Shown: piece after piece, positions 10,086 through 26,458 of the stretch
Numbering within the stretch: the stretch's first letter is position 1
Layout of the letters: every line of letters starts with the position of its first letter
Source of the DNA: Clostridia bacterium
GTDB taxonomy: Bacteria; Bacillota; Sulfobacillia; JAJZYS01; JAJYTV01
DNA length: 64,000 nt
Assembly: GCA_027420455.1 (NCBI GenBank)
Contig: DAIBJA010000072.1
Span: forward strand, 24 to 64,023
Reading direction: 5' to 3'
Translations under genes and position numbers: made by a program
Notes under the pieces: generated by a model
The model's input: only the letters and a program-made list of their open reading frames with translations
What the model was told of the DNA's origin: nothing
Databases searched by the model: none

Positions 10086-10567
10086 GTCGGCACCGGCAGG
10101 CTCCAGGCGTCCGCGCATGATGCCCCGATCGAACCGCAGGCGGCTCCTAGCGCCGATCCCGCCAGGAGGGCGCCGATGAGGGCGGCGGCCACGGTGAACG
10201 GGAGCCACGGGAGCGACAGGTTGCCCGCGTGCGGCAGCGCTCCTTGCAGATAGCGCATGTAGCCATGGTTCAGGAGGAGAATGGCCCCACGGGGGAATTC
10301 TGCCAGCAGGGCGGCTGTCCAACCTGCGATGAGGCCGCCCGCCATGGCCGTCCGTCGATCGTTTCCCGCGCGTCGCAGCCGGAAGCCCGCATAGCCATAG
10401 AGCAAGATCTCCACGACGAAGACTACCATCGGCAGCATGGTGCCTTGGTGGGTCATGCCGCGGCTGCCGCCACGACCGATGAAGACGATCCAAGCCAGCG
10501 CCGCCGCGGGCAATCCCGATGCGAGTCCGCTGCGCAGCGCGGCAGCGTTGATGCCTAGGCGATTCAT
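10073..10567 (-). CDS. Hypothetical small membrane protein.
   Basis: ORF with several hydrophobic segments and no recognisable family. Could be spurious in this GC-rich DNA. Confidence 0.3.
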   Translation of the reverse strand: MNRLGINAAALRSGLASGLPAAALAWIVFIGRGGSRGMTHQGTMLPMVVFVVEILLYGYAGFRLRRAGNDRRTAMAGGLIAGWTAALLAEFPRGAILLLNHGYMRYLQGALPHAGNLSLPWLPFTVAAALIGALLAGSALGAACGSIGASCADAWSLPVPTQLP

Positions 10568-10626
10568 CGAATCCTTCCCTTCGTCTCGTCCGCTCGGACG
10601 GGGACCCAGTCGACCGTTAGGCTACA

Positions 10627-11310
10627 ATGGGCAGGGAGGCTACGCCTGTGCGACGACGCAGCTATCGCGATCTGCCCGCGACCTATGCGATCCTTGTCAT
10701 CCTGGCCATCATGTACGTGCTCGAGGGCGGACTGGGCGGTTCGCCCCAACTCATGCGCATGGTGGACCTCGGCGCGCAGGTCAATGTCCTCGTTCTGCAA
10801 GGACAGTGGTGGCGCATATTCACGGCCATCTTCCTGCACCTCAACTGGCTGCACATCCTTGTCAACGGCTACAGCCTCTTTGTGATGGGCGAACTGGTGG
10901 AGCCGGCATTCGGCTCCCGCCGCTTTGTCGTCGTGTTCCTGCTGGGCGGCATCATGGGCGGACTACTGGCTCTTGTCACCTATCCGCCATATACCGTCCT
11001 TGTCGGGGCGTCGGGCGCCATCTTCGGGCTGCTCGGCGCCACGGGCGTCATCGCCCTCGAGGCGCAGAGGCCGGTGCGAAGCTACCTCCTGCGCTGGCTG
11101 GGCAGCATCCTCGTCTTGAACCTTGCGCTCGACTTCATGTATCCCGGCATCGGCGTATGGGACCATGTGGGTGGGCTTATCGGCGGCTTCCTCGCAGCGT
11201 ACATGCTGGGCGGCGTTCACCGTCTTAGCGGCTGGCCTTCGCGCGCCGCGGGAGTCGCCTACGTCGTGGTCTGTGTCGGCCTCATCGCTTTCGCGCACAT
11301 CTACGGCTAG
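10627..11310 (+). CDS. Rhomboid-family intramembrane serine protease. Alternative GTG start at 10648 behind AGGGAGG.
   Basis: GASGAIFGLLG (catalytic Ser) and HLGGLIGG-like His motif (HVGGLIGGF). Multi-pass membrane topology. Confidence 0.8.
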   Translation: MGREATPVRRRSYRDLPATYAILVILAIMYVLEGGLGGSPQLMRMVDLGAQVNVLVLQGQWWRIFTAIFLHLNWLHILVNGYSLFVMGELVEPAFGSRRFVVVFLLGGIMGGLLALVTYPPYTVLVGASGAIFGLLGATGVIALEAQRPVRSYLLRWLGSILVLNLALDFMYPGIGVWDHVGGLIGGFLAAYMLGGVHRLSGWPSRAAGVAYVVVCVGLIAFAHIYG

Positions 11311-11347
11311 ATGCGCCACTAAGATATACCACGCTGCGCAGGCCGGA

Positions 11348-11383
11348 CAACCGGCGGTGCAGGGATGGCAGTGTGCTATAATG
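11348..11383 (+). promoter_or_regulatory. Candidate sigma-A promoter of the yqeG-aro operon, with an extended -10 (TGcTATAAT).
   Basis: Perfect TATAAT at 11377..11382 preceded by TGn, about 25 nt upstream of the yqeG start. Confidence 0.35.
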
Positions 11384-11405
11384 CTGCCAACTTCGGTGAA
11401 GGGGC

Positions 11406-11933
11406 TTGAACGTGCTCTCGAAGCTGCGCCCGCACCTGTACCTGCCGTCCGTCCAGAGCGTGGATCCTCGGCTGCTCAGGCGCCGCGGCATCCGCGGCGT
11501 CGTGCTGGATCTCGACAACACGCTCGCAGGCTGGAACTCTCCGAGGCCCTCACGTGAGGTAAAGGCCTGGGTGCAGCGCCTGCGCGGCACCGGCATCGGC
11601 GCCGTGATCCTCAGCAACAACGGCCGGGGCAGGGTCGAGGACTTTGCCGGTTGGCTAGGCGTGCCGTTCATCCCGCATGCCCGCAAGCCGTCGGCGCGCG
11701 GGTTCCAGAGAGCCCTCTCGGTGCTTGGCACGACACCGCAGTCGACGGCGGTGATCGGCGACCAGGTGTTCACCGACATCCTGGGGGGCAACCGGGCCGG
11801 CATGTTCACCATCCTCGTGACCCCTCTGACGCGGCACGAGTTCCTGGGTACGCGGGCCGTCCGGCATCTTGAGGATGTCGTCCTGCACCACTTCGAGCGC
11901 AGCGGACTGCGCGTCCCTTCGAGCGCGGGCTAG
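11406..11933 (+). CDS. yqeG: YqeG-family HAD-IIIA phosphatase.
   Basis: DLDNTL motif I, SNNG, GD-x-x-TD motif. Sits at the head of an aro operon as in Bacillus yqeG. Confidence 0.75.
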   Translation: MNVLSKLRPHLYLPSVQSVDPRLLRRRGIRGVVLDLDNTLAGWNSPRPSREVKAWVQRLRGTGIGAVILSNNGRGRVEDFAGWLGVPFIPHARKPSARGFQRALSVLGTTPQSTAVIGDQVFTDILGGNRAGMFTILVTPLTRHEFLGTRAVRHLEDVVLHHFERSGLRVPSSAG

Positions 11934-12005
11934 CCTAGGGCCTCCTTGCCTGACGCCAAGGGCCATGGCTTGTGGCGTCAGGCATTCCTGTATGCACGAT
12001 CTCGG

Positions 12006-12833
12006 ATGCAAGGCGGTGCGGCATTGGAACTGCTCGGCCTGTTCGGCCAGGGCATCGACGGCTCGTTCTCTCCCTTTCTGCACGCGGCGGCGCTCAGGGC
12101 AACCGGGCGGGAAGGGCAGTACATGCTCTGGGACGTCGCGCCAGACGACCTCGGCATAGCCCTGCGCGGGGCCTATCTGCTCGGCGCACGGGGAGCCAAT
12201 GTCACGAAGCCCTTCAAGCAGGCCGCCGCGCAGATGGTCATGCGGCTCGACCCCTGGGCGCGGCGCATCGGCGCCGTCAATGTGCTCAGGCGCACGTCCG
12301 GCGGCTGGGAGGGGCACAACACCGATGCCGACGGCTTCTGGCATCCCCTCGCGGCCCTGTCGCGGCCGATCGCGCGCGCGCTCGTCCTCGGCACGGGGGG
12401 GGCGGCCCTGGCCGTCTGCGCCGTACTGGTGCGCGAAGGTGTCTCCCTGCGTGTGGCTGGCCGCAACCGTGAGATGCTCGGACGTCTGGGCCGGGAGTTC
12501 GGCGCCCAGACGATCGACTGGCGCCAGCGGGGCGACCTTGCCGACGTCGACCTGATCGTCAACGCCACGACCGTGGGCAGCCAGAGCGACGACAGCCCCT
12601 TGGACGAAGAATCCATCCCCAGGGGCGCGATCGTTTATGATCTCATCTATCGCCCCCAGCCCACGAAGTTGCTCCAGTCCGCGAAGCGGCGCGGCTGCCG
12701 CACGATCGGCGGCGGCGGGATGCTGCTCGGCCAGGCCATGCTCGCGTGGCGCCTCTGGTATGACGAGGATCCGCCGCATAGGGCAATGGCGTCGGCACTG
12801 GAACTTGCCATGACGCGTCAAGACGTTTCCTGA
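12006..12833 (+). CDS. aroE: Shikimate dehydrogenase.
   Basis: Start placed at the internal ATG (MQGG..LLGLFGQGIDGSFSP). Motifs GANVTKPFK and GAVNVL, plus a GTGGAA NADP site. Confidence 0.8.
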   Translation: MQGGAALELLGLFGQGIDGSFSPFLHAAALRATGREGQYMLWDVAPDDLGIALRGAYLLGARGANVTKPFKQAAAQMVMRLDPWARRIGAVNVLRRTSGGWEGHNTDADGFWHPLAALSRPIARALVLGTGGAALAVCAVLVREGVSLRVAGRNREMLGRLGREFGAQTIDWRQRGDLADVDLIVNATTVGSQSDDSPLDEESIPRGAIVYDLIYRPQPTKLLQSAKRRGCRTIGGGGMLLGQAMLAWRLWYDEDPPHRAMASALELAMTRQDVS

Positions 12834-12840
12834 GAGGAGG

Positions 12841-13986
12841 ATGGCCTTGCGTTACCTCACCGCCGGGGAATCCCACGGTCCGGCCCTTTTGGGCATCATG
12901 GAAGGCATGCCGGCAGGGCTGCATCTCTCCGCCGATGTGGTGAATCTTGAGCTCACGCGCCGGCAGGCAGGTTATGGCCGCGGCCAGCGCATGCGCATCG
13001 AGCGCGACGAGATCGAGTGGTTGGCCGGAGTTCGCTTCGGCGAGACCTTGGGGTCGCCGATCGCCCTGATGATCAGGAACAGGGACTTCGAACGCTGGCA
13101 GCAGCGCATGGCTCCCGAAGGGGATGTGGTCGGCCCCGCGTTCACTCGGCCGAGACCTGGACATGCCGATCTCGCCGGAGCCCTCAAGTACGGACGCGGA
13201 GACGCGCGGGACGTCCTCGAGCGCGCCTCGGCGCGCGAGACGGCCATGCGAGTCGCGCTTGGCGCGATCGCAAAGGCCTTCCTCGGTCACTTCGGCATCG
13301 AGATCGTCTCGCACGTGGTCGCCCTCGGCGATGTCACTGCCTCGCCGCCTGCTCAGATCGACCGAGACGCCATCGACCGCTCGCCGGTCCGCTGCGCGGA
13401 TCCAGTCGCCGCGGAGGCGATGGTGGCGGCGATCGACGCGGCGCGTCTCAAGGGCGACACGCTGGGCGGCGTCGTGGAGGTGCAGGCCCTTGGGGTGCCG
13501 GTCGGGCTCGGCACGCACGTGCACTGGGACCGCAAGCTCGACGGACGCCTCGGGCAGGCGATGCTGTCGGTACCTGCGATCAAGGGGCTCGAAATCGGCG
13601 CCGCGAGCTGGGGCGCGGCCCACCTTGGCTCACAGGTGCACGACGAGATCTTCTTCAGGCAAGGCGAGGGCTTCACGCGGTCGACGAACCGCGCCGGCGG
13701 GAGCGAGGGTGGCATTTCGAACGGTGCACCCGTCTGGGTGCGCGCAGCGATGAAACCGCTGAGCTCGCTGCATCGTCCTCTCCGCTCGGTCGACATGGAC
13801 ACCAAAGAAGAGTTTCTTGCCCAGGTGGAACGCTCGGATATCACGGCCGTACCAGCCGCCGGCGTGGTGCTCGAAGCCGTGATGGCCCTTGTGCTGACGG
13901 AGCTCTTCCTTGAGAAGTTCTCCGGTGACGCGCTGATCGACGTCGAGGCGGCCTATCATCACTACATCGGGCGGATTTCGCGGTGA
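12841..13986 (+). CDS. aroC: Chorismate synthase.
   Basis: MALRYLTAGESHGPAL N-terminus and GAGGAGG RBS. Confidence 0.9.
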   Translation: MALRYLTAGESHGPALLGIMEGMPAGLHLSADVVNLELTRRQAGYGRGQRMRIERDEIEWLAGVRFGETLGSPIALMIRNRDFERWQQRMAPEGDVVGPAFTRPRPGHADLAGALKYGRGDARDVLERASARETAMRVALGAIAKAFLGHFGIEIVSHVVALGDVTASPPAQIDRDAIDRSPVRCADPVAAEAMVAAIDAARLKGDTLGGVVEVQALGVPVGLGTHVHWDRKLDGRLGQAMLSVPAIKGLEIGAASWGAAHLGSQVHDEIFFRQGEGFTRSTNRAGGSEGGISNGAPVWVRAAMKPLSSLHRPLRSVDMDTKEEFLAQVERSDITAVPAAGVVLEAVMALVLTELFLEKFSGDALIDVEAAYHHYIGRISR

Positions 13987-15509
13987 TCGTCGCACTCGTC
14001 GGGCTGCCGGGCGCCGGGAAGACCCGCATTGGACGCGAACTCGCAGATCGGCTCGGCTACAGCTTCCTCGACACCGACCAGATGCTGCAGGAGCGGCTCG
14101 GCGCGCCCGCGGCCGAGCTCTTCGAGCGCCTGGGCGAAGAGGCCTTTCGCGACGAGGAGACCGGATCTCTGCGCGAAGCGCTATCAGGTCGCGACCGCGT
14201 CGTCTCGACCGGTGGCGGCACGGTCCTGAGGCCCGACAACCGCCGTCTCCTGCGAGAGGTTCGCGTGCTCGGGCTGACGGCGCGCGACCCGCAGCTCCTT
14301 TCCCGCCTGCGCGGCGGGCGAGGCCGCCCGGTTCTCGCCCCCAACCCGGCGGATCGGCTGCAGATCCTGCGCCGCGACCGCCTTCCCCTCTATGAAGAGG
14401 TGGCGGAGGCTTGGTTCTGGACCGAATCGGCGCCCGTGCGTGCGGTCGAGCGCATCAGGGATTTCCTCGCCTTGCGGCGTCTCGCGCCGGGCGTCTACTT
14501 CGGCCGCGGGGCTCGCCGCTTCGCGGGATCGTTTTCGGGGTTTGGGCGCACCCTCCTCCTTACCCAGCCGCCGCTCGTCGACGGCTGGGCGAGGTCGATC
14601 CTCGACAGCCTGAGTTACGGCGAGCGCCAGGTGACGATGGAAGTGGTGCCGGACGGCGAAGCCGCAAAGGAGTTCGGGGTCTACCAGGATCTCTTGCGGC
14701 GCATGGCGCATCTGGGCATGACACGCGACGAGACCGTGGTAGCGGTGGGTGGCGGAGCCGTCACCGACCTCGGCGGTTTTGTCGCGGCCAGCTACATGCG
14801 CGGCGTTCCGCTCGTGCTGGTCCCCACAACCGTCATCGCCCAGGCGGATGCGGCTCTTGGCGGCAAGACGGGCATCGACCTGCCCGAAGGCAAGAACCTC
14901 GTCGGGGCCTTCTACCCGGCGCAGGCCACCCTCGTCGATCCCGAGACGCTGCGCACCCTGCCGCTGGCGGAATTCCGCGATGGGCTTGCCGAGGTGGTCA
15001 AGTGCGGTCTGGGACTCGATGCGGAACTCTTTGCCGCATGTGCCACCTGGCGTAGACCACCGGCCGGACCAGCCCTCGATTTTGCCCTCGAGCGGGCTGC
15101 GAGGGCAAAACTCCGCCTGGTGGCCGCTGATCCCAAGGAGGCCGGCGACAGGGCCAAGCTGAACCTCGGCCACACTGCCGGGCATGCGGTAGAGGCGGCG
15201 AGCGGCTATCAGGTTTCGCACGGGCGAGCGGTCGCCATCGGCCTTGCCGCCGTGTCGCGACTCGCCGAGCGCCGCTACGCATTCTCGCATGCGCGGGAGG
15301 TGCTCGAACTCTTGCGCCGCCTGGGACTGCCTACCTATTATCGAGGCGATCCAGACGACCTCTGGACGTATCTCGTGCGCGACAAGAAGCACGGCAGCCA
15401 CGGTTTTCGCATGGTGGTGCCGCGGCGCATCGGCACCTGCGAGGTGCTGCGCGTCGAAGAGGAGGAAATGCGCGAACTCGCGGCGCTCACATGTACACCA
15501 CCTGCCTAG
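13983..15509 (+). CDS. aroKB: Bifunctional shikimate kinase / 3-dehydroquinate synthase (AroK-AroB fusion).
   Basis: N-terminal P-loop GLPGAGKT followed by a TDQ shikimate-kinase core. C-terminal DHQS motifs (GGGAVTDLGGF, KLNLGHTAGHA). GTG overlaps the aroC stop (GTGA). Confidence 0.85.
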   Translation: MIVALVGLPGAGKTRIGRELADRLGYSFLDTDQMLQERLGAPAAELFERLGEEAFRDEETGSLREALSGRDRVVSTGGGTVLRPDNRRLLREVRVLGLTARDPQLLSRLRGGRGRPVLAPNPADRLQILRRDRLPLYEEVAEAWFWTESAPVRAVERIRDFLALRRLAPGVYFGRGARRFAGSFSGFGRTLLLTQPPLVDGWARSILDSLSYGERQVTMEVVPDGEAAKEFGVYQDLLRRMAHLGMTRDETVVAVGGGAVTDLGGFVAASYMRGVPLVLVPTTVIAQADAALGGKTGIDLPEGKNLVGAFYPAQATLVDPETLRTLPLAEFRDGLAEVVKCGLGLDAELFAACATWRRPPAGPALDFALERAARAKLRLVAADPKEAGDRAKLNLGHTAGHAVEAASGYQVSHGRAVAIGLAAVSRLAERRYAFSHAREVLELLRRLGLPTYYRGDPDDLWTYLVRDKKHGSHGFRMVVPRRIGTCEVLRVEEEEMRELAALTCTPPA

Positions 15510-15563
15510 ACGGCACTAGATGCCGCGGCGGTGAGCGCCGCTTTTGCAAGGAATATTTCCCTA

Positions 15564-15592
15564 TTGACAGCGGACGTGCCGCCTGATACCTT
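15564..15592 (+). promoter_or_regulatory. Candidate promoter for the riboswitch-Tad transcript (-35 TTGACA, 17-nt spacer, weak -10 TACCTT), preceded by AT-rich DNA.
   Basis: TTGACA at 15564..15569. AT-rich UP-like segment at 15550..15563. The -10 is a weak match. Confidence 0.3.
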
Positions 15593-15604
15593 CTATCCAC
15601 ATTG

Positions 15605-15700
15605 AATACCCCGCGAAATGGCAAACGGCCCGAAAGGGTCGGACGCAAAGCTACGGGTCTAAGGCCAAAGTGGGCTATGATCGCCGGGCTGCCGAAGGGA
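15605..15700 (+). ncRNA. Candidate c-di-GMP-I (GEMM) riboswitch aptamer in the 5' leader of the flp/tad operon.
   Basis: Sequence ...AUGGCAAACGGCCCGAAAGGGUCGGACGCAAAGCUACGGGUCUAAGGCC... matches the GEMM hallmarks: GGCAAAC, GAAA tetraloop hairpin (GGCCC-GAAA-GGGUC), GGACGCAAAGC and CUAA. Compare V. cholerae Vc2 GGCAAACC..GAAA..GGGACGCAAAGCC..CCUAA. Confidence 0.65.
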
Positions 15701-15709
15701 GAAGGTTTG

Positions 15710-15745
15710 ACCTCCCGATGGCTATCGGGAGGCCTATTAACTTTT
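15710..15745 (+). terminator. Riboswitch expression-platform intrinsic terminator (CCUCCCGAU-GGCU-AUCGGGAGG followed by a U-rich tract). An alternative antiterminator pairing GGGAG/CUCCC lies upstream.
   Basis: Perfect 9-bp stem with a 4-nt loop, followed by CCUAUUAACUUUUC. Located between the aptamer and the flp RBS. Confidence 0.5.
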
Positions 15746-15769
15746 CGGGGGCGGGGGAAGGAGGGCACC

Positions 15770-15949
15770 ATGTTGATGGCCGTGTCTCAGTGCTCGAGCT
15801 TCCTGCGCCGCCTGCGTGCTACCGAGGGCCAGAGTATGGTCGAGTATGCCCTGATCATCGCGCTCGTCGCCGTTTTTGTGGTCGGTGCCGTGGTGTTTCT
15901 GGGGCATGGCATCAGCAACATCTTCGACAGCATCACCGGCAGTCTCTAA
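15770..15949 (+). CDS. flp: Flp-family type IVb pilin.
   Basis: 59 aa. Contains the G/XXXXEY prepilin motif (EG/QSMVEYALIIALVAV). AGGAGG RBS. Confidence 0.85.
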   Translation: MLMAVSQCSSFLRRLRATEGQSMVEYALIIALVAVFVVGAVVFLGHGISNIFDSITGSL

Positions 15950-15953
15950 CCCG

Positions 15954-16358
15954 ATGCGGGCGCGACGCCGCCCGTGGCTCTCCGACCGGAAGGGTCAGGC
16001 GGCAGTGGAGCTTGCCCTGATCCTTCCGGTTCTTGTCCTCCTTCTGCTCGGCATGCTGCAGGTGGGCATCGTGCTGCAGGACTATCTCCAGCTGCAGCAG
16101 GCGGTGGAGCAGGGGGCCCGCGCAGCGAGCCTCGGCGCGGCCGACGCGACGATCCAGCAGACGGTGGACAGCGCGGCCCCCAGCCTGAGCCCCTCCGCCC
16201 TCACCGTGACCGTGAGCCCGGCCGCCGCTGAACGGCAGTCCGGGACCGAAATCACCGTGCAGGGCTCGTACGGCATCAGCATCAGCATTCCCCTGCTCAC
16301 TCCGCTCATCGGAGGGCAGCTTGAGATTTCGAGCCAGTCGGTCATGCGTATGGAGTGA
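15954..16358 (+). CDS. tadE: TadE-like pilus assembly protein (pseudopilin).
   Basis: TadE N-terminus RKGQAAVELALILPVLVLLLLGML. Confidence 0.75.
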   Translation: MRARRRPWLSDRKGQAAVELALILPVLVLLLLGMLQVGIVLQDYLQLQQAVEQGARAASLGAADATIQQTVDSAAPSLSPSALTVTVSPAAAERQSGTEITVQGSYGISISIPLLTPLIGGQLEISSQSVMRME

Positions 16359-16364
16359 TCGCTC

Positions 16365-17249
16365 ATGCCAAGGCTGCGTGCGGAGAGCGGTCAGGCTACG
16401 GTGCTGTTCGCCCTTGCGGCGGTCGCCCTGCTTTCGGTGGCGTCGCTGTCGCTCGACGCAGGTCGGGCGTACATCACGACGCAGCAGCTCAAGTCCGCCG
16501 CGGACGCAGCGGCTCTCGCCGGCGGACAGGATCTCCCGTCCGATCCGACAGCCGCCGTCTCGGTCGCAATGACCACCGCCGCGGAGAACGGCGTGCCGTC
16601 GCAGGACGTCTCGGTGCAGATCAATGCACAGGACAACATCATCACCGTGACGACCCGTGGCGACATCCCGTACTACTTCGCGTCCCTCTTCGGCATCGAC
16701 CGGGGCTCGTTCCAGGAGACGTCCGCAGTGGAGGTCGGACCGATCTCTGAGGTCACGGGCGCAATGCCGCTCGGAGTCGTCTGGAGCGACTTTGTGCCTG
16801 GCCAGACGTACGTCCTCAAGGATGGCGGCGGCTCCGGCAGCGACGGCAACTACGGCATTCTCGCCCTTGGCGGCCCCGGCGCCGACATCTACAGCCAGAA
16901 TCTCGCGAACGGCTATGGTGCGCCGCTCACGGTCGGCGCGGCGCTGGAGACCCAGACGGGCACTATTGAGGGAAAGACGGAGGACGGGCTCTCGGCACGT
17001 GTGGCTGCCGGGGCCGGTTACTCCTGGCAGACGATACCCCTGACCTCGCCAGCGGTGGTGGATCTTCCGATCATCTCTGCGCCATGCAATGGCAAGTCGG
17101 AGGTCACGATTCTCGGCTTCGCGGCCTTCTTTCTGACTTCGGTCGGCTGCAAAGGCGAGGTCCAGGGCGTGTTCCTCGACGCGGTCACGTCAGGGCAGTT
17201 CGGCCAGGGCCAGAGCTACGGCCTCCAGGCGGAAAGGCTGATCGAATGA
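16365..17249 (+). CDS. TadG-like pilus assembly protein (Tad_N domain).
   Basis: N-terminus GQATVLFALAAVALLSVASLSLDAGRAY..AADAAALAG is typical of TadE/G-like proteins. Confidence 0.7.
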   Translation: MPRLRAESGQATVLFALAAVALLSVASLSLDAGRAYITTQQLKSAADAAALAGGQDLPSDPTAAVSVAMTTAAENGVPSQDVSVQINAQDNIITVTTRGDIPYYFASLFGIDRGSFQETSAVEVGPISEVTGAMPLGVVWSDFVPGQTYVLKDGGGSGSDGNYGILALGGPGADIYSQNLANGYGAPLTVGAALETQTGTIEGKTEDGLSARVAAGAGYSWQTIPLTSPAVVDLPIISAPCNGKSEVTILGFAAFFLTSVGCKGEVQGVFLDAVTSGQFGQGQSYGLQAERLIE

Positions 17250-17965
17250 CGCGGCGTAGACTCTTGCGCGTGATCGTACCGCTGTTCGTCGCACTCCTGC
17301 TCACGCTCGTCGTCGCCAAGGCGACCGCAAAGCCGACGCCCCGCCGGGTGCCGCTCCTGGTGGCGGCCACGGCGGTCCCGGCGGGCAGCGTCCTCTCAGG
17401 ATCGGATCTGAGGCTGCAGGAGGTCTCCCCGTCGGCGATCCTGCCCGGCAGCATGACGAGCCTGGGCGCGGCCGTGGGCCAGGTGACCAGAGTGGGCTTG
17501 AGCGCCGGCTCGCCGGTGCTCACGGACGAGATCGAGCCCGAGACCAGCGCCGGCCTCGCCTACCAGATTCCGCGGGGGCAACGCGCACTGACGCTCGCCG
17601 TCAACGGTGTCTCCGGCGTTGCGGGCAACCTGACGGCCGGCGCCCGCGTCGACGTGCTTTTGACCATCAGCGCCCAGACAGCCCAGGCGGGGCAGAGCGC
17701 CGCGCCCGCGGAGAGCACGATCATCGTGCCCGACGTGGCGGTCCTCTCGACAGGACTCGCGGGCAGCGGCGCCGGCGGATCAGGCTACGCGCTCGTCACG
17801 CTTGCGGTGACGCCCAAAGACGCTGCGACGATCGCGCTCGGAGAGCAGCAGGGCACGCTTCTCCTGCTGCTGCGGCCGCCGGGTGACCAGGCGACGCCTT
17901 CCGTGCAGATCCGCGTGGGAGGGATTGTGCCATGGGCCTCGAGCGGGAAGCGCGGCTCCTGCTGA
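17246..17965 (+). CDS. cpaB: Flp pilus assembly protein CpaB/RcpC (SAF domain).
   Basis: N-terminal TM helix plus SAF-like region. ATG overlaps the upstream stop (ATGA). Confidence 0.8.
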   Translation: MTRRRLLRVIVPLFVALLLTLVVAKATAKPTPRRVPLLVAATAVPAGSVLSGSDLRLQEVSPSAILPGSMTSLGAAVGQVTRVGLSAGSPVLTDEIEPETSAGLAYQIPRGQRALTLAVNGVSGVAGNLTAGARVDVLLTISAQTAQAGQSAAPAESTIIVPDVAVLSTGLAGSGAGGSGYALVTLAVTPKDAATIALGEQQGTLLLLLRPPGDQATPSVQIRVGGIVPWASSGKRGSC

Positions 17966-19104
17966 TGGCGCCTTCGCACAGGCGCGAAGGGCTGCTCGAC
18001 GTGCTGAAAGAGGTCGGCGCGGTGCGCGAAGCGGATACGCCGGCGCGCGTGCGGGCCTTCGCCCGTCAGGAGCGTCCCGATCTCGTGGTGCTGCACCTGG
18101 ACGCGGATCCTGAATGCCTTGCCCTCTGCGCGGAACTCGATCAGTCCTACGGCGTGCGCGTGCTGGTGGTCGGGCGGGAGGCGGGCGTCGAGGCGCTGCG
18201 CGCCGCGATGCAGGCCGGGGCCCGGGACTATCTCGCGGATCCCGTGCCGCCGGGGGAACTGCGATCGGCGGTGGCGCGCCTGGCGCAGGTGGAGCGCAGG
18301 GTCAGGCGAGGTCACGTCATCACGGTGTTCGGCACGAAGGGCGGCGTGGGCAAATCCACCCTCGCGGCCAATCTTGCGGTGGTGCTGGCGGACCGTCATC
18401 ACCAGCGGGTGGCCCTGTGCGACCTCGACCTCGAGTTCGGCTGTGCCGCCACGCTCTTCGGCCTGCGCCCCACGGCGACGATCGTCGACGTCTGCCGCCA
18501 TCCCGGCGCCATGACCCTCGGGACCATCGGCGAGGCCCTGAGCCACTCCGACCACAGCGAAGTAGACATCCTCGCCGGCCCCCCGACGCCGGATCTCGCC
18601 GCATTCGTCGACGGCGAGGGCAAGCGCGACCCGGAGCGCAACTACGTCCAGGAGATCCTGCGCACCCTGCGCACAGCCTACGACTGGGTGATCGTCGACA
18701 CCGCGGTGGACTTTGGCGAAGGGGTGATCACCGCACTCGACGAGGCCGAGCGCATCCTCTTCGTCACGACGCCGGACATCCCGGCCCTGCAGAACTCAGC
18801 CAAGGGACTCGACATCCTCCTCGAGCGGCTGGGCTACCCTCAGGAGAAGCTTTCCGTCGTCCTGAACCGCGGCAATGCGGCCATGGGCCTGATGGAGGAC
18901 GAAATCGCCCAGGCGCTCAGCCATCCCATCCGCCACATGCTCCCGTCGGACGGCGACGTCGCGGTGCGCGCAGCCAACATCGGCATGCCGCTCGTCCTGC
19001 TGCGGGGCCGGTCGCCGCTGGCCCGCGCTGTGGGCCGCCTGGGCGGGGAACTCGTGCACGACCTCGAGCGGCCGCGCGTCTCCGGTCTCAGCGGGGAGGC
19101 GTAA
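17932..19104 (+). CDS. cpaE: CpaE/TadZ pilus assembly ATPase (receiver-like N-domain plus MinD/ParA-type ATPase). Alternative start at 17965.
   Basis: Deviant Walker A GTKGGVGKST and a receiver-like N-terminus. Confidence 0.8.
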   Translation: MGLEREARLLLMAPSHRREGLLDVLKEVGAVREADTPARVRAFARQERPDLVVLHLDADPECLALCAELDQSYGVRVLVVGREAGVEALRAAMQAGARDYLADPVPPGELRSAVARLAQVERRVRRGHVITVFGTKGGVGKSTLAANLAVVLADRHHQRVALCDLDLEFGCAATLFGLRPTATIVDVCRHPGAMTLGTIGEALSHSDHSEVDILAGPPTPDLAAFVDGEGKRDPERNYVQEILRTLRTAYDWVIVDTAVDFGEGVITALDEAERILFVTTPDIPALQNSAKGLDILLERLGYPQEKLSVVLNRGNAAMGLMEDEIAQALSHPIRHMLPSDGDVAVRAANIGMPLVLLRGRSPLARAVGRLGGELVHDLERPRVSGLSGEA

Positions 19105-19107
19105 ACC

Positions 19108-20409
19108 ATGTCGCTTTACAAGCGTTTGCGGGGTACGGACGAGGAAGGGCCCGCTCTCGAGCAGGCGCCGGAGCCGACCAGGGTCGAGCGCCTGCGCCTG
19201 CTGGTGCAGCAGCGCCTCGCCGCCGATATGGCGGAGGCCTCGCCGAACGACGACGAATGGAAGCGGCAGGTGCGCGAGCGCATCGCCTCGCTCCTGCGCG
19301 ACGAACCGGACCTCGGCCCCCTCGAGCGGGAAAACCTCGCGGCGTCGCTCTACGCGCAGATCGTCGGGCTCGGTCCGCTCCAGCCCCTCCTGGAGGACCC
19401 GGGCGTCAGCGAGATCATGGTCAATGGGCCGCAACAGGTCTACGTGGAGCGGAGCGGAAGACTGCAGCGGACGTCGGTGCGTTTCCGGGACGACAAGGAG
19501 ATCATGGAGCTGATCGAGCGGATCGTCGCACCGCTCGGCCGCCGCATCGACGAGTCGAGCCCGATGGTCGACGCCCGGCTCAAGGACGGCTCGCGCGTGA
19601 ACGCGATCATCCCGCCGCTCGCCCTGCGCGGTCCCTCCCTCACCATCCGCAAGTTTCCCGAGCACGCCCTGACAATGGAGGATCTCGAGCAGATCGGCTC
19701 CCTCAGCGGCGGCATGGTCGAACTGCTGCGCGCCGCCGTGCGCGGCAGGCTCAACATCGTCGTGGCGGGAGGCACCGCATCAGGCAAGACGACACTCCTC
19801 AACAGCCTTTCGGCGTTCATCCCATCCGATGAGCGCATCGTCACGATCGAGGATGCGGCCGAGCTCAGGCTGCAGCAGGATCACGTCGTGGCGCTCGAGA
19901 CCCGCCCGGCCAACCTCGAGGGGCGTGGGGAGGTAACGATCCGCCAGCTCGTGCGCAATGCGTTGCGCATGCGGCCGGACCGCATCGTCGTCGGCGAGGT
20001 GCGCGCCGGAGAGGCGCTCGACATGCTGCAGGCGATGAACACCGGCCACGACGGATCGCTCACGACGGTCCACGCCAATGCGCCGCGCGACGTGCTGTCG
20101 CGCATCGAGACCATGGTGCTGATGGCAGGATTCGAATTGCCGATGCGCGCCATCCGCGAGCAGATCGCTTCGGCTCTGGACCTGATCGTGCACGCCCAGC
20201 GCATGCGGGACGGCTCGAGGCGCGTCACGCACATCACCGAGGTGCAGGGCATGGAGGGGGAGGTCATCGTGCTCCAGGATCTCTTCCGCTACAAGCCCAG
20301 CGAAGGCTTTGCGCCCACGGGCCTCAGGCCCCGCTTTCTCGAACGTCTCGAGACCTATGGGCACACGGTCGATCCACACATCTTCCAGGCGGGTGGCCGC
20401 GATGGGTAG
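19108..20409 (+). CDS. cpaF: CpaF/TadA secretion ATPase.
   Basis: [14 protein letters not shown] Walker A, T2SS-E family. GGGGAGG RBS. Confidence 0.9.
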
Positions 20410-21352
20410 AGACATCGCGCTCGTCGCGATCTTCGCCTTCATCTTTTCCGGCATGTGGGCACTGCTCTCGCCGGACCCCGCCATGGTCCGTCAGCTTCGC
20501 CGCACCGTGCATCGCGGCGAGAGTCCGGCGGCGGACGAGGCGCAACGGGAGCCGTCGCGCACGCCGCGCGAGCGCATCGCGTCCGCGCTCGAGGCCATGA
20601 TCCTGCGGCGCTCGCTCGTGCAAAGCCTCGAGGCGAGGCTGCGCGCCGCGGATCTCGAACTGCGCGTGGGCGAGTTCCTGCTGCTCAGCCTGGGCCTGGG
20701 CGTCCTGGGTCTGCTGCTCGCGCTGCTCCTGGGCGGCGGAGTGCTCCTGCTGCTCGCGCCCATGCTGCTCGCGCTGCCCACGCTCTTTCTGGGCACGCGG
20801 TCGCAGGAGCGCCGCAAGCAGATCGGCCTTGCGCTGCCCGATGCGCTCGGCAGCACCGCAAGCGCCCTGCGGGCGGGCTTCTCGCTCCTCCAGGCGCTTG
20901 ACGCCTGCGCGCGCCAGACGAAGGGGCCGCTCGGGCAGGAACTCGACCGCATGCTGGCCGAGACGCGCGTCGGCGTGCCCGTAGACGAAGCGCTCGAAAA
21001 TCTGGCGAAGCGGGCAGGTTCGCCCGACCTCACCCTCATGGTCACGGCTGTCCAGATCCAGCGCCAGGTCGGAGGCAATCTGGCCGAGGTGCTCGACCGC
21101 ATCCAGCAGACGATCCGGGAGCGCATCCGCCTGCAGGCGGAGGTGCGGGCGCTCTCGGCCCAGGGCCGCATGTCTTCCATGATCATCGGCCTCTTGCCGA
21201 TCGGACTTCTGGTGATGATGGCGATGCTCGCTCCCGCCTTTGTCGGTCCGATGCTGCAACCGGGCATCGGCCGCATGCTTCTCATCCTGGCGGGACTCTT
21301 CGAGATCGCGGGCTTCTTCGTCCTCAGCCGCGTCGTGCGGATCGAGGTCTAG
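20402..21352 (+). CDS. tadB: TadB pilus assembly membrane protein.
   Basis: T2SS-F-like polytopic membrane protein. Start at the internal ATG overlaps the cpaF stop by 8 nt. Confidence 0.8.
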   Translation: MGRDIALVAIFAFIFSGMWALLSPDPAMVRQLRRTVHRGESPAADEAQREPSRTPRERIASALEAMILRRSLVQSLEARLRAADLELRVGEFLLLSLGLGVLGLLLALLLGGGVLLLLAPMLLALPTLFLGTRSQERRKQIGLALPDALGSTASALRAGFSLLQALDACARQTKGPLGQELDRMLAETRVGVPVDEALENLAKRAGSPDLTLMVTAVQIQRQVGGNLAEVLDRIQQTIRERIRLQAEVRALSAQGRMSSMIIGLLPIGLLVMMAMLAPAFVGPMLQPGIGRMLLILAGLFEIAGFFVLSRVVRIEV

Positions 21353-21355
21353 ACC

Positions 21356-22243
21356 ATGGAGATAATCACCGTGCTCCTGGCCATCGCCCTCGGCTACAGC
21401 ATCGGACTCTACATCGTCGCTCCCGGCGCGGTGCAGGAGCTTGAGCGCATCCAGCTCGAACGCGTCGTCCGCCACCGCAACGGAGCGGTAGCCGCTGCCG
21501 ACCCGGAACGCGGGTTCATCGACCGGTTCCTGCGACCACTGCTCGAGGAGCTGTCGCGTGTCCTCATGCGCTACCTGCCGCAGCGCCAGGGCGATCTGCT
21601 GCGGAAGCGAATCGAGCGCGCTGGCAATCCGACGTCCCCCGGCGTGCTGCTCGGCAGCCGCTTCCTGCTGCTGATCATCGGACTCCTGCCGGCGCTCTTC
21701 GGCGGCATGGCCATACTGATCGGCGCGGCACTCGGCATCCTCGGCTGGCGCCTGCCGGACTTCTGGCTCGCGCGTCGCGCCACCGCGCGCCAGCACCTGA
21801 TGCTGCACCAGCTGCCGGACGTGCTGGACCTCCTGTCGGTCTCGGTCGAGGCGGGTCTCGGCTTCGACGCGGCACTCTCGCGCGTGACGGGCCGATTCGG
21901 TGAGCCGGTCACGGGCGAGTTCGGCCGGCTCCTGCGCGAACTGCAGCTCGGCAGACCCAGGGCGGAGGCGCTCTCCGACCTCGCCAGGCGCATGGACCTC
22001 CCAGACCTCACGGCGTTCGTCGGAGCGGTGGTGCAGGCCGACGAGCTGGGCGTCGGAATCGCGACGGTGCTGCGGGCACAGAGCGAGCAGATGCGCTCAC
22101 TCAGGCGCCAGCGCGCTCAGGAGGCGGCGCTCAAGGTGCCGATCAAGATGCTCTTCCCTTTGATCTTCCTCGTCTTTCCGGCCCTGTTCATCGTTCTCCT
22201 CGGTCCGGCCGTGCTTTCCTTCGTGCGGACTCTGCATCACTGA
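21356..22243 (+). CDS. tadC: TadC pilus assembly membrane protein.
   Basis: T2SS-F-like membrane protein, paralogous to tadB. Confidence 0.8.
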   Translation: MEIITVLLAIALGYSIGLYIVAPGAVQELERIQLERVVRHRNGAVAAADPERGFIDRFLRPLLEELSRVLMRYLPQRQGDLLRKRIERAGNPTSPGVLLGSRFLLLIIGLLPALFGGMAILIGAALGILGWRLPDFWLARRATARQHLMLHQLPDVLDLLSVSVEAGLGFDAALSRVTGRFGEPVTGEFGRLLRELQLGRPRAEALSDLARRMDLPDLTAFVGAVVQADELGVGIATVLRAQSEQMRSLRRQRAQEAALKVPIKMLFPLIFLVFPALFIVLLGPAVLSFVRTLHH

Positions 22244-23355: not shown

Positions 23356-23546
23356 GGAGCATTCCCCCACGAGCGAAACTGTCCCGAAGCGTAGCACTTT
23401 CGCCCGCATGAGACGAGTTCCGTCCGGACCGATTCGGGCCGCGTCGGTGCCGGCTGTGGGGCAGGGGAATGGCGGGTGGACAGGAAATCGCGCCCGGGCG
23501 TGCGAAATGCGTCGAAGTGTCCGCTCTGTGGTGGAGGGATTTGCAC

Positions 23547-24857: not shown

Positions 24858-24958
24858 CGAACCATCAGCTGACCTACGGGCGCATAGAGCCCTTAAGTGG
24901 GGAGCGCAGACCGGAGATCGAGATGGGATCGCGCGGTGGCGATCCAGGAGGCATGGGA

Positions 24959-26457: not shown

Positions 26458-26458
26458 C

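What the first reader, a model, noticed from the sequence alone, without database searches (positions are those of the whole stretch)
15564..15769. c-di-GMP-I (GEMM) riboswitch with terminator/antiterminator immediately upstream of the Flp/Tad pilus operon
The 260-nt leader between aroKB and flp contains the primary-sequence hallmarks of the GEMM aptamer: GGCAAAC, a GAAA-capped hairpin, GGACGCAAAGC, CGGG..CUAA. These are followed by a perfect 9-bp stem with a U-rich tail (15710..15745) and an alternative GGGAG/CUCCC pairing. This is the layout of a transcription-attenuating riboswitch. It would place Tad-pilus expression under direct c-di-GMP control. A large GGDEF-EAL protein is encoded 18 kb downstream.
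Basis: partly seen in the sequence, partly recalled or inferred. Interest (0 to 1): 0.6.

Follow-up and report, generated by a model that had tools for sequence, protein, structure and literature searches.

The report
c-di-GMP riboswitch controlling Tad pilus operon
The leader in front of the Flp/Tad pilus genes is a genuine cyclic-di-GMP class I riboswitch, an already well-known type of RNA sensor, and its layout suggests that high c-di-GMP switches pilus transcription off rather than on.

Summary
Rfam RF01051 (c-di-GMP-I) matches window 15610-15696 (+) over its full length at 83.6 bits (gathering score 35, E 5.5e-15). It is the only Rfam hit in the 64 kb.

The aptamer has the ligand-contact bases G15620, A15647 and C15692, a GAAA tetraloop and a tetraloop receptor. 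It lies in a 171-nt 5'UTR between a conserved promoter and flp (15770). The promoter is -35 TTGACA (15564-69) with an extended -10, TGATACCTT (15584-92). An eight-gene tad operon follows and ends at 22243.

Fourteen distinct related leaders from metagenomes and MAGs keep the whole design. Across 24 aptamers, 94.6% of cells pair and 11 of 21 pairs carry compensatory changes.

The 9-bp hairpin (15711-32) covaries. In relatives it is followed by a canonical U tract. The window's own tail is the weakest of the set.

The aptamer's 3' end (GCCG..GGGAG, 15691-15701) is complementary to the terminator's 5' arm plus an invariant GGC in its loop. This matches the layout of the Cd1 OFF switch. I therefore infer that c-di-GMP causes termination; this polarity is not tested.

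GEMM was linked to the tad gene cpaA in 2007. This is a new member of a known kind.

The parts
15564..15569 (+). Promoter -35 box, TTGACA
   Evidence: Invariant in 12 of 12 aligned leaders. Sequence conservation starts just upstream of it even where the upstream gene differs. The relative L174 is called as a sigma-70 promoter, TTGACA-17-TATTTT with a TG.
15584..15592 (+). Extended -10, TG-A-TACCTT. Predicted transcription start at about 15599.
   Evidence: TG and the T-A...T of the hexamer are invariant, and the other positions vary: TATTTT, TATTGT, TACTTT, TACATT. The window's hexamer is too weak for the tool's threshold. The start site is inferred from spacing, not mapped.
15609..15615 (+). 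Proposed 5' strand of P1 (CCCCGCG)
   Evidence: It can pair G15615:C15693, C15614:G15694 and CCC15609-11:GGG15697-99 around a 2x2 internal loop. It is invariant in relatives, so there is no covariation. The register was inferred from P1 in other aptamers: L021a CCCA/UGGG, L021b CUCG/CGAG, L021c CCUUACUG/CAGGAAGG.
15610..15696 (+). c-di-GMP-I aptamer (RF01051)
   Evidence: 83.6 bits, E 5.5e-15, full model length. G15620, A15647 and C15692 align with Vc2 G20, A47 and C92. Covariation across 24 aptamers.
15621..15646 (+). P2 helix with GAAA tetraloop (15632-35)
   Evidence: Rfam alignment. Five of the six inner pairs show compensatory changes. Example: the window's G15627:C15640 is A:U in L172.
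15649..15690 (+). P3 helix with tetraloop-receptor motif (UCUAAG 15658-63 and UAUGA 15676-80)
   Evidence: Rfam alignment. 94.8% of cells pair and 3 pairs have changes on both sides.
15691..15701 (+). Switching 'A' strand, GCCGAAGGGAG. It is the 3' end of the aptamer, holding C92 and the P1 3' strand, and it is also the 5' half of the antiterminator.
   Evidence: It pairs with 15712-22 in co-transcriptional MFE folds of transcripts ending at 15717-15728. Energy is -12.5 to -13.7 kcal/mol. Invariant in all relatives.
15711..15732 (+). Terminator hairpin: CCUCCCGAU, loop GGCU, AUCGGGAGG. The 5' arm plus loop GGC (15712-22) form the 'T' strand.
   Evidence: -15.0 to -16.1 kcal/mol. Stem changes in relatives keep pairing: G:C to A:U in L174/L176, U:A to A:U in L181, and a 6-bp stem in L180. 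Loops vary in length and sequence, but GGC is invariant.
15733..15746 (+). A/U-rich tail, CCUAUUAACUUUUC (the terminator's U tract)
   Evidence: Relatives have UUUUUCGCUUUUUC (L174) and CUUUCACUUUUUC (L169, L170). Both are called terminator-like by the scan. The window's copy is not called.
15747..15757 (+). Conserved G run, GGGGGCGGGGG (role unknown)
   Evidence: GCGGGG is conserved in relatives and is complementary to CCCCGC at 15610-15. That pairing appears in full-length MFE folds. No covariation is available.
15760..15765 (+). Shine-Dalgarno sequence, GGAGGG
   Evidence: It lies 4 nt before the ATG and is conserved. Its probability of being unpaired is similar in the modelled terminator and antiterminator states.
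15770..15949 (+). flp, the Flp pilin (59 aa)
   Evidence: PF04964, 33.9 bits. Homologues of 64-86% identity lie behind the same leader.
15954..22243 (+). Rest of the tad operon: tadE 15954-16358, tadG-like 16365-17249, cpaB/rcpC 17246-17965, cpaE/tadZ-like (REC plus ParA) 17932-19104, cpaF/tadA 19108-20409, tadB ending at 21352 (start not fixed; longest ORF starts at 20309), tadC 21356-22243
   Evidence: Pfam hits. Gaps are 4 to 7 nt or the genes overlap. A convergent radical-SAM gene on the minus strand (22237-23559) ends the unit. No secretin and no prepilin peptidase was seen in the operon. Co-transcription is inferred.

Best explanation
The 5'UTR of the flp-tad operon is a class I cyclic-di-GMP riboswitch that acts on transcription.

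Proposed sequence of events:
1. Transcription starts near 15599 from a conserved TTGACA / extended -10 promoter.
2. The aptamer (15610-15696) folds into P2 (GAAA loop) and P3 (receptor). It binds c-di-GMP at the junction through G15620, A15647 and C15692.
3. Without ligand, the aptamer's 3' end is free. GCCG (15691-94) and GGGAG (15697-15701) pair with CUCCC (15712-16) and UGGC (15719-22). Those are the 5' arm and the loop of the downstream hairpin. This antiterminator forms before the 3' arm is made and blocks nucleation of the hairpin. Polymerase then reads through into flp and the seven tad genes.
4. With ligand, C15692 and the P1 strand are held in the aptamer. CCUCCCGAU is then free to pair with AUCGGGAGG. 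The 9-bp hairpin followed by the A/U-rich tail terminates transcription around 15738-15746.

High c-di-GMP would therefore lower Tad pilus expression. This is an OFF switch with the same P-A-T-H layout as the C. difficile Cd1 riboswitch.

What is shown: the aptamer identity, the operon, the conservation of every element, and the covariation of the aptamer and the hairpin.

What is inferred: the start site, P1, termination at this tail, the antiterminator, and the polarity.
For: Aptamer:
- RF01051 at 83.6 bits, E 5.5e-15, full length.
- The G20, A47 and C92 equivalents are present (alignment; their roles are described in PMC5888326).
- Across 24 aptamers, 94.6% of cells pair, 11 of 21 pairs have compensatory changes, and 0 of 500 shuffles reach the observed covariation score or percentage of paired cells.

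Context:
- Flp, TadE, TadG-like, CpaB, CpaE, CpaF, TadB and TadC lie immediately downstream.

Conservation:
- All 14 distinct leaders in front of Flp homologues (64-100% identity) or beside CpaE homologues (88-90%) keep promoter, aptamer, A strand, hairpin, U tail and SD. They do so in at least four different upstream gene contexts.

Terminator:
- The hairpin is -15 to -16 kcal/mol.
- Stem changes keep pairing, and relatives L174 and L170 are called canonical terminators.

Antiterminator:
- It appears in the MFE of nascent transcripts ending at 15717-15728.
- Its energy is -12.5 to -13.7 kcal/mol.
- GGC in the terminator loop is invariant although loop length and sequence vary.
- Full-length constrained folds are balanced: antiterminator -70.7 against aptamer plus terminator -68.1 kcal/mol before any ligand energy.

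Precedent:
- In Cd1, aptamer and terminator coexist and compete with an antiterminator, and c-di-GMP turns transcription off (PMC9262584).

Recurrence:
- c-di-GMP-I aptamers precede tad loci on the same strand in 6 of 80 unrelated GTDB loci.
- In L013b and L035 the aptamer 3' end GUUGCC is likewise complementary to GGCAAC in the terminator's 5' arm or loop.
Against: - The window's own tail is a poor U tract. The UUUU run lies 9 nt from the stem (7 nt if two flanking G:C pairs extend it), and it fails the consensus terminator scan.
- The A:T antiterminator pairing and P1 are invariant in every relative. They rest on complementarity and conservation, not covariation.
- The proposed P1 is weak: 2 bp plus 3 bp around a 2x2 mismatch.
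- By thermodynamics alone, the isolated hairpin (-15 to -16.1) is more stable than the antiterminator (-12.5 to -13.7). The OFF model therefore needs kinetic control.
- Repression of an adhesive pilus by c-di-GMP runs against the usual expectation that c-di-GMP favours attachment. The only pilus riboswitch cited in the papers I read, C. difficile pilA1, is described there as raising expression at high c-di-GMP (PMC11656802).
- No ligand binding, 5'-end or termination data exist.
Confidence: 0.62

Rival explanations
1. Same riboswitch and same terminator but opposite polarity. c-di-GMP binding would prevent termination, so that c-di-GMP induces Tad pili. This fits the usual sessile-lifestyle logic.
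For: - Weinberg et al. 2007 noted that in many GEMM instances the terminator overlaps the aptamer's last stem, which predicts ON switches.
- The C. difficile pilus riboswitch is described as raising expression at high c-di-GMP.
- The hairpin is thermodynamically stronger than the proposed antiterminator.
Against: - The terminator (15711-32) does not overlap the aptamer (which ends at 15696), so the two can form together.
- The only conserved competitor for the terminator's 5' arm is the aptamer's own 3' end. Ligand binding would withdraw that strand.
- No sequence was found that ligand binding would free to pair with either terminator arm.
Confidence: 0.13
2. The hairpin is not a terminator in this organism. 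The switch would act after transcription, on translation initiation or mRNA stability. Candidate pairings are the anti-SD-like CCUCCC, the SD-like GGGAGG, the conserved G run, and long-range pairs CCCCGC:GCGGGG and CCGAAGGG:CUUUUCGG.
For: - The window's tail is not a canonical U tract.
- CCUCCC is complementary to the SD, GGAGGG.
- The full-length MFE pairs 15610-15 with 15751-56 and 15692-99 with 15741-49. Both partners are conserved.
Against: - In both modelled states CCUCCC is occupied, by the A strand or by the 3' arm. The probability that the SD is unpaired is similar in the two states.
- Relatives with the same design have canonical U tracts directly after the stem.
- The long-range pairs show no covariation.
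Confidence: 0.15
3. The aptamer senses a different cyclic dinucleotide, for example 3'3'-cGAMP as in GEMM-Ib. Alternatively it is a decaying relic with no regulatory role.
For: GEMM-I-like aptamers with changed specificity exist. Several tad-associated aptamers in other loci carry A at the G20 position.
Against: - The window and all 13 close relatives keep G at 15620 together with A47 and C92. This is the c-di-GMP signature.
- The leader is conserved base for base from the -35 box to the SD across Flp proteins that have diverged to 64% identity. That argues for purifying selection.
Confidence: 0.05

Closest known systems
Cd1 c-di-GMP-I riboswitch upstream of the flgB flagellar operon of Clostridioides difficile (transcriptional OFF switch; PMC9262584)
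   Same: Same aptamer class. Same order of strands: P1 5' strand, aptamer 3' 'A' strand, switching 'T' strand, terminator 'H' strand. Aptamer and terminator can coexist, and the antiterminator is formed by the aptamer's 3' strand with the terminator's 5' arm. Both control a surface-appendage operon.
   Different: Cd1 regulates flagella, not pili. Its antiterminator starts to fold 47 nt after the aptamer first becomes able to bind ligand. Here the T strand begins about 15 nt after the aptamer and the antiterminator also captures the terminator loop. The polarity is demonstrated for Cd1 and only inferred here.
Vc2 (Vibrio cholerae VC1722/tfoY leader), the structural archetype of c-di-GMP-I
   Same: G20, A47 and C92 ligand contacts, GNRA tetraloop in P2 and receptor in P3. 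The window positions 15620, 15647 and 15692 align with them.
   Different: Different gene and different expression platform. Vc2 is from a gamma-proteobacterium. Here the SD, promoter type and secretin-less tad operon suggest a monoderm-type organism.
GEMM motif instances upstream of cpaA (the Flp prepilin peptidase) listed by Weinberg et al. 2007, Table 2 (PMC1950547)
   Same: The same RNA family placed in front of Cpa/Tad pilus genes. The Bacillota loci L013, L027, L029 and L035 found here have a TadV/CpaA-like membrane-protein gene (judged by eye, not tested by Pfam) as the first gene after the aptamer.
   Different: In the window the first regulated gene is the pilin flp itself, and no prepilin peptidase lies in the operon. 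The 2007 list gives no mechanism or polarity.
The c-di-GMP riboswitch upstream of the primary type IV pilus operon of C. difficile (Bordeleau et al. 2015, cited in PMC11656802)
   Same: A type IV filament pilus operon placed under direct c-di-GMP control by a leader riboswitch, in a Gram-positive organism.
   Different: From my own knowledge, not tested here, that riboswitch is class II and therefore a different aptamer fold. The pilus is a type IVa-like pilus, not Tad. It is an ON switch (expression rises with c-di-GMP), whereas OFF is inferred here.
pilM GEMM-Ib riboswitch of Geobacter (cGAMP-sensing, transcriptional ON switch; PMC9262584)
   Same: Highly similar aptamer fold upstream of pilus assembly genes.
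   Different: The ligand is cGAMP. From my own knowledge, not checked in the papers read here, GEMM-Ib aptamers carry A at position 20. The terminator and the aptamer are mutually exclusive, which gives ON. The window has G20 and a non-overlapping terminator.

Membership tests
c-di-GMP-I riboswitch (Rfam RF01051, GEMM-I) | Covariance-model score at or above the curated gathering threshold, over the whole model | tested here: met
   83.6 bits against 35, E 5.5e-15, model positions 1-87 of 87, no truncation.
c-di-GMP-I riboswitch (Rfam RF01051, GEMM-I) | Two parallel helices: P2 capped by a GNRA tetraloop, and P3 carrying a tetraloop receptor (or the alternative bulged-A variant) | tested here: met
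   GAAA at 15632-35. Receptor halves UCUAAG (15658-63) and UAUGA (15676-80). Rfam alignment. The docking itself is inferred.
c-di-GMP-I riboswitch (Rfam RF01051, GEMM-I) | Ligand-contact nucleotides G20, A47 and C92 (Vc2 numbering) | tested here: met
   G15620, A15647 and C15692 by alignment to the Rfam consensus. Their roles are described in PMC5888326. They are invariant in 12 aligned relatives.
c-di-GMP-I riboswitch (Rfam RF01051, GEMM-I) | Helices supported by covariation among homologues | tested here: met
   24 aptamers: 94.6% of cells paired, 11 of 21 pairs with changes on both sides, covariation score 0.476 against a shuffled mean of 0.196 (0 of 500 shuffles). Slid controls give at most 50% paired. 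The alignment was fitted to the model, which favours the structure somewhat.
c-di-GMP-I riboswitch (Rfam RF01051, GEMM-I) | Position in the 5' regulatory region of a GEMM-type gene (environment, membrane, motility) | tested here: met
   73 nt upstream of flp on the same strand, downstream of a conserved promoter. The tad gene cpaA is in the 2007 list of GEMM-associated gene families.
c-di-GMP-I riboswitch (Rfam RF01051, GEMM-I) | Specific high-affinity binding of c-di-GMP | not testable with these tools
   Needs in-line probing, ITC or a gel-shift assay.
Transcription-terminating riboswitch of the Cd1 type (OFF switch) | Intrinsic terminator (GC-rich hairpin followed directly by a U tract) downstream of the aptamer and not overlapping it | tested here: inconclusive
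   The hairpin is present, is -15 to -16 kcal/mol and does not overlap the aptamer. The window's tail, CCUAUUAACUUUUC, fails the scan. The orthologous leaders L174 and L170 pass it.
Transcription-terminating riboswitch of the Cd1 type (OFF switch) | Antiterminator formed by the aptamer's 3' strand with the terminator's 5' arm, mutually exclusive with the ligand-bound aptamer | tested here: met
   15691-94 and 15697-15701 pair with 15712-16 and 15719-22. This is the MFE of nascent transcripts, at -12.5 to -13.7 kcal/mol. Both partners, including the loop GGC, are invariant in 14 leaders. This is complementarity and conservation only; no covariation is available.
Transcription-terminating riboswitch of the Cd1 type (OFF switch) | c-di-GMP increases termination and lowers expression | not testable with these tools
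   Needs transcription assays or reporter fusions.
Flp/Tad (type IVc) pilus operon | Flp pilin, TadE/TadG pseudopilins, CpaB, TadZ/CpaE, the TadA/CpaF ATPase, and the TadB/TadC platform proteins | tested here: met
   PF04964, PF07811, PF13400, PF16976, ParA/AAA_31 plus REC, PF00437, and PF00482 twice. No secretin and no prepilin peptidase was found within 15770-22243.

The most novel reading that the evidence does not exclude
In this uncultured high-GC lineage, c-di-GMP would shut off Tad pilus synthesis. That reverses the usual link between c-di-GMP and adhesion.

The switch would use a compact Cd1-like platform in which the antiterminator also captures the terminator's loop. The promoter-riboswitch-flp cassette would behave as a portable unit. 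It is found behind at least four different upstream genes. One copy precedes an orphan flp paralogue beside MCP and CheW chemotaxis genes (L172). That would link c-di-GMP, chemotaxis and pilin supply.
Probability: 0.5. Interest if true: 0.4.

Novelty: new member of a known kind. Interest (0 to 1): 0.25.

Why it matters
This locus gives a clean, sequence-defined example of a Tad (type IVc) pilus operon under direct RNA-level c-di-GMP control in a monoderm-type, uncultured bacterium. I found no experimental study of a c-di-GMP riboswitch on flp/tad genes in the searchable literature. I found only the 2007 listing of cpaA among GEMM-associated gene families.

If the inferred OFF polarity holds, Tad pili in this lineage belong to the low-c-di-GMP state. 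That would be a useful counter-example when predicting lifestyle from c-di-GMP circuitry in metagenome-assembled genomes.

Otherwise this is an ordinary, correctly recognised member of a well-studied riboswitch class. Any Rfam-based annotation pipeline would label it.

Tried and rejected
1. A long-range P1 between CCUUCU (15589-94) and AGAAGG (15700-05). Rejected: the 5' partner lies in and just after the -10 hexamer, upstream of the likely start site.

2. SD sequestration by the anti-SD-like CCUCCC. Rejected as the main mechanism. CCUCCC is paired in both states, and the probability that the SD is unpaired is similar in both.

3. Regular-expression searches for the aptamer core in related loci. 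These missed real aptamers, for example in L013, L029 and L035. They were replaced by Rfam and covariance-model searches.

4. Model R1, built on the RNAalifold consensus. Its structure was wrong (14 pairs, P3 missing). I used it only as a sequence-driven detector. R2 was rebuilt with the Rfam-derived structure.

5. The MAFFT alignments A3 and A4 mis-register the hairpin's 3' arm and P3. Pair counts were therefore made on the CM alignment A5, and the hairpins were analysed one sequence at a time.

The nearest relative found was only 60% identical (Thermalbibacter longus), so the organism could not be named. An identical Flp occurs in MAG GCA_021786135.1 and in ENA, JGI and Logan assemblies.

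7. The more distant Flp homologues P0017 and P0019 have no aptamer. DNA for P0018 and for one P0019 contig could not be retrieved.

8. The GGDEF-EAL gene 18 kb away was checked. I set it aside as evidence because it is neither adjacent to the operon nor part of it.

9. A terminator scan of window 10001-30000 found 10 sites against 6.6 ± 2.4 expected from shuffles, most of them inside genes. It says nothing about this genome's terminator style.
Full report
**Observation**

The stretch 15510-15769 is the 260-nt spacer between the stop codon of a fused aroK-aroB gene (13983-15509) and the ATG of a 59-aa Flp pilin (15770-15949).

A scan of the whole 64-kb window against Rfam 15 returns one match at gathering level. 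It is RF01051 (c-di-GMP-I) at 15610-15696 on the + strand, 83.6 bits against a threshold of 35, E = 5.5e-15. It covers model positions 1-87 of 87, and one non-canonical pair is flagged at the tip of P3.

**Anatomy of the aptamer**

By alignment to the Rfam consensus:
- P2 is 15621-15646, with a GAAA tetraloop at 15632-35.
- P3 is 15649-15690. It carries the two halves of a tetraloop receptor, UCUAAG (15658-63) and UAUGA (15676-80).
- The three nucleotides that contact the ligand in the Vc2 structure are present. G20 makes a Hoogsteen contact to one guanine, C92 pairs with the other, and the ligand's 2'-hydroxyl hydrogen-bonds to the A47 phosphate (PMC5888326). Here they are G15620, A15647 and C15692.

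**Genes under control**

Pfam assigns the downstream genes as follows:
- Flp, TadE (15954-16358) and a TadG-like protein (16365-17249).
- CpaB/RcpC (17246-17965).
- A TadZ/CpaE-like protein with receiver and ParA domains (17932-19104).
- The CpaF/TadA ATPase (19108-20409).
- Two T2SSF-type platform proteins, TadB and TadC, ending at 22243.

The genes overlap or are separated by 4 to 7 nt. The next gene is a convergent radical-SAM gene on the minus strand. A single eight-gene transcription unit is therefore likely; this is inferred. The operon contains no secretin and no prepilin peptidase, which fits a monoderm-type Tad system.

Glycine-cleavage, glyA and other unrelated genes lie between it and the operon, so it is not evidence for the riboswitch.

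**Relatives**

The organism could not be named.
- The identical Flp protein occurs in MAG GCA_021786135.1 and in ENA, JGI and Logan assemblies.

Flp homologues of 64-86% identity and CpaE homologues of 88-90% identity were traced to their contigs. Covariance-model searches found an aptamer in every one of these loci that holds enough upstream DNA. That gives 14 distinct leaders. More distant Flp homologues (P0017, P0019) have none.

The aligned leaders are conserved from just upstream of a -35 TTGACA box. This holds even where the upstream gene differs. Four upstream contexts were seen:
- aroKB directly upstream.
- aroKB followed by an inserted 321-aa gene (L166).
- An unrelated small ORF (L085, L181).
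- A DsbD/MCP neighbourhood (L172).

The regulatory unit therefore travels with flp, not with aroKB.

**Promoter**

The promoter reads -35 TTGACA (15564-69), then a 17-nt spacer (18 nt in four relatives), then an extended -10, TG-n-TAnnnT (15584-92). TG, T, A and the final T are invariant, while the middle of the hexamer varies.

The window's own hexamer, TACCTT, is too weak for the consensus scan. The orthologue in L174 is called as TTGACA-17-TATTTT with a TG. A start site near 15599 is inferred from spacing. It gives a 171-nt 5'UTR.

**Covariation**

A model built with the Rfam-derived structure (R2) aligned 24 aptamers. These came from the window's family and from unrelated tad loci.

On that alignment:
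- 94.6% of cells form standard pairs.
- 11 of 21 pairs show changes on both sides.
- The covariation score is 0.476 against a shuffled mean of 0.196 (0 of 500 shuffles reach it).
- Sliding the partners by one to three columns drops pairing to 18-50%.

The alignment is fitted to the model, which favours the structure somewhat, but the signal is large. Compensatory changes also occur within the close family. For example, G15627:C15640 is A:U in L172.

**Expression platform: the hairpin and its tail**

Downstream of the aptamer the family keeps this order: GGGAGAAGG, a short variable segment, CCUCCC, a hairpin, a U-rich tail, a G run, the SD GGAGGG and the ATG.

The hairpin in the window is CCUCCCGAU/AUCGGGAGG (15711-32, -15 to -16 kcal/mol). 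In relatives:
- The stem keeps pairing through G:C to A:U changes (L174, L176) and a U:A to A:U change (L181).
- It shortens to 6 bp in L180.
- The loop varies from 4 to 7 nt.

The tail differs among relatives:
- L174 has UUUUUCGCUUUUUC, and L169 and L170 have CUUUCACUUUUUC. Both L174 and L170 are called terminator-like by the scan.
- The window has CCUAUUAACUUUUC, the weakest of the set, and it is not called.
- If the two flanking G:C pairs (15704-05 with 15733-34) extend the stem, the following 11 nt (UAUUAACUUUU) are A or U at 10 positions. That would still give a weak RNA:DNA hybrid.

I conclude that the family uses an intrinsic terminator. Its efficiency in this particular copy is uncertain.

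**Alternative pairing and polarity**

Folding nascent transcripts from 15599 shows the following:
- Once CUCCC emerges (3' end at 15717-15728), the minimum-energy structure pairs GGGAG (15697-15701) with CUCCC (15712-16).
- From 15724 onwards it adds GCCG (15691-94) with UGGC (15719-22).

This antiterminator has an energy of -12.5 to -13.7 kcal/mol. It uses C15692 and the nucleotides that follow it. Those are the ligand-contacting cytosine and the 3' strand of P1.

Its other half is the terminator's 5' arm plus the first loop nucleotides. In all 14 leaders the loop contains GGC directly after the 5' arm, although the rest of the loop differs: GGCU, UGGCUU, AGGCGAA, GGCGA, GGCUGA, GGCA, GGCUU and GAAGGCU. 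The simplest reading of this conservation is selection for the antiterminator.

Full-length constrained folds are balanced. The antiterminator state is -70.7 kcal/mol and the aptamer-plus-terminator state is -68.1 kcal/mol before any ligand contribution.

This arrangement matches that described for the C. difficile Cd1 riboswitch. There the strand order is P1 5' strand, aptamer 3' strand, switching strand, terminator strand. Aptamer and terminator coexist and compete with an antiterminator, and c-di-GMP turns transcription off (PMC9262584).

I therefore infer an OFF switch:
- Ligand holds the A strand in the aptamer.
- The hairpin then forms and transcription stops around 15738-46.

Weak points of this inference:
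- The A:T pairs and P1 are invariant, so they cannot show covariation.
- P1 is only 2 + 3 bp around a 2x2 mismatch.
- The model needs kinetic control.
- The polarity is biologically unexpected for an adhesive pilus.

**Rivals**

- An ON switch would need the terminator to overlap the aptamer, as Weinberg et al. described for many GEMM instances. Alternatively it would need a strand that ligand binding releases to pair with a terminator arm. Neither was found.
- Translational control through the anti-SD-like CCUCCC is not supported. That segment is paired in both states, and the SD is similarly accessible in both.
- Conserved long-range complementarities remain unexplained: CCCCGC 15610-15 with GCGGGG 15751-56, and CCGAAGGG with CUUUUCGG. 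They could affect read-through transcripts.
- A different ligand is unlikely, because G20, A47 and C92 are kept in the whole family.

**Comparison with what is known**

c-di-GMP-I is a long-established class. The paper that discovered it already listed cpaA, the Flp prepilin peptidase, among gene families preceded by GEMM more than once (PMC1950547, Table 2).

The association recurs in my own sample. Among 80 unrelated tad loci, six carry one to three aptamers upstream on the same strand:
- Five are Bacillota MAGs (L013, L021, L027, L029, L035), where the first gene is mostly a TadV-like membrane-protein gene (judged by eye).
- In L021 one of the three aptamers lies directly before flp.
- One is a Planctomycetota MAG (L039), also before flp.

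In L013b and L035 the aptamer's 3' GUUGCC is complementary to GGCAAC in the terminator's 5' arm or loop. That is the same OFF-type logic.

Four literature searches found no experimental study of a c-di-GMP riboswitch on flp/tad genes. The library does not cover all journals.

**Verdict**

It is a new member of a known kind. It would be recognised automatically by Rfam-based annotation, so overall interest is low to moderate.

The most interesting residue is the inferred OFF polarity for a Tad pilus, together with the portable promoter-riboswitch-flp cassette. Both are cheap to test.

Noticed in passing
window 15525-15545: A terminator-like hairpin lies right after the aroK-aroB stop codon. GCGGCG (15525-30) pairs with CGCCGC (15536-41), the loop is GUGAG, and UUUU follows (15542-45). 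It probably insulates the flp promoter from aro transcription. It also suggests this genome uses short U tracts. The consensus scan misses it because it has only 4 T.
   Followed up: partly
L172 2334-2731 (also L173): The same promoter-aptamer-terminator leader precedes an orphan flp paralogue (P0012). That gene lies beside MCP (HAMP plus MCPsignal) and CheW genes, not a tad operon. The called 76-aa gene starts inside the terminator loop. The real start is probably the ATG at 2561.
   Followed up: partly
L013 4266-4350; L021 4624-4709 and 4735-4820; L027 5296-5382: Several tad-associated aptamers in Bacillota MAGs have A instead of G at the G20 position (for example AAAAAAGCAAAC). In L013 and L027 such a copy sits in tandem with a G20 copy. 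From my own knowledge, not checked in the papers read here, A20 is the hallmark of cGAMP-sensing or promiscuous GEMM-Ib aptamers. Tandem sensors with two specificities are therefore possible.
   Followed up: no
window 15610-15615 with 15751-15756; 15692-15699 with 15741-15749: Two conserved long-range complementarities appear in full-length MFE folds. CCCCGC pairs with GCGGGG just upstream of the SD. CCGAAGGG pairs with CUUUUCGG in the U tract. All partners are invariant in relatives, so there is no covariation, and their role is unexplained.
   Followed up: partly
L166 1117-2082 (also L167 21-986): In some relatives a 321-aa gene is inserted between aroKB and the riboswitch leader. It has no Pfam hit in my scan and only a faint precomputed Pel9A-like beta-helix hit. 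This shows the leader belongs to flp, not to aroKB.
   Followed up: partly
L085 399-679 compared with L181 470-770: The upstream half of L085's leader is identical to that of L181. Its expression platform and flp are identical to the window's, whereas L181's Flp is only 66% identical to the window's. This is either recombination within the leader or a chimeric short-read contig.
   Followed up: no
window 33609-36680: A GAF-PAS-GGDEF-EAL protein of 1023 aa, a likely c-di-GMP turnover enzyme. It is the only one I looked for in the window. It is not linked to the tad operon.
   Followed up: partly
window 15770-22243: The tad operon has no secretin (RcpA/CpaC) and no prepilin peptidase (TadV/CpaA) gene. 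Its TadZ/CpaE homologue carries an N-terminal receiver domain. The peptidase must be encoded elsewhere.
   Followed up: no
L091 306-391; L039 2238-2319; L073 6641-6717 (minus strand): More distant tad loci carry c-di-GMP-I aptamers with quite different platforms. L091 has 37% CpaE identity. L039 and L073 are Planctomycetota MAGs. L039 has about 280 nt between the aptamer and flp. The L073 aptamer is on the strand opposite to cpaF.
   Followed up: no
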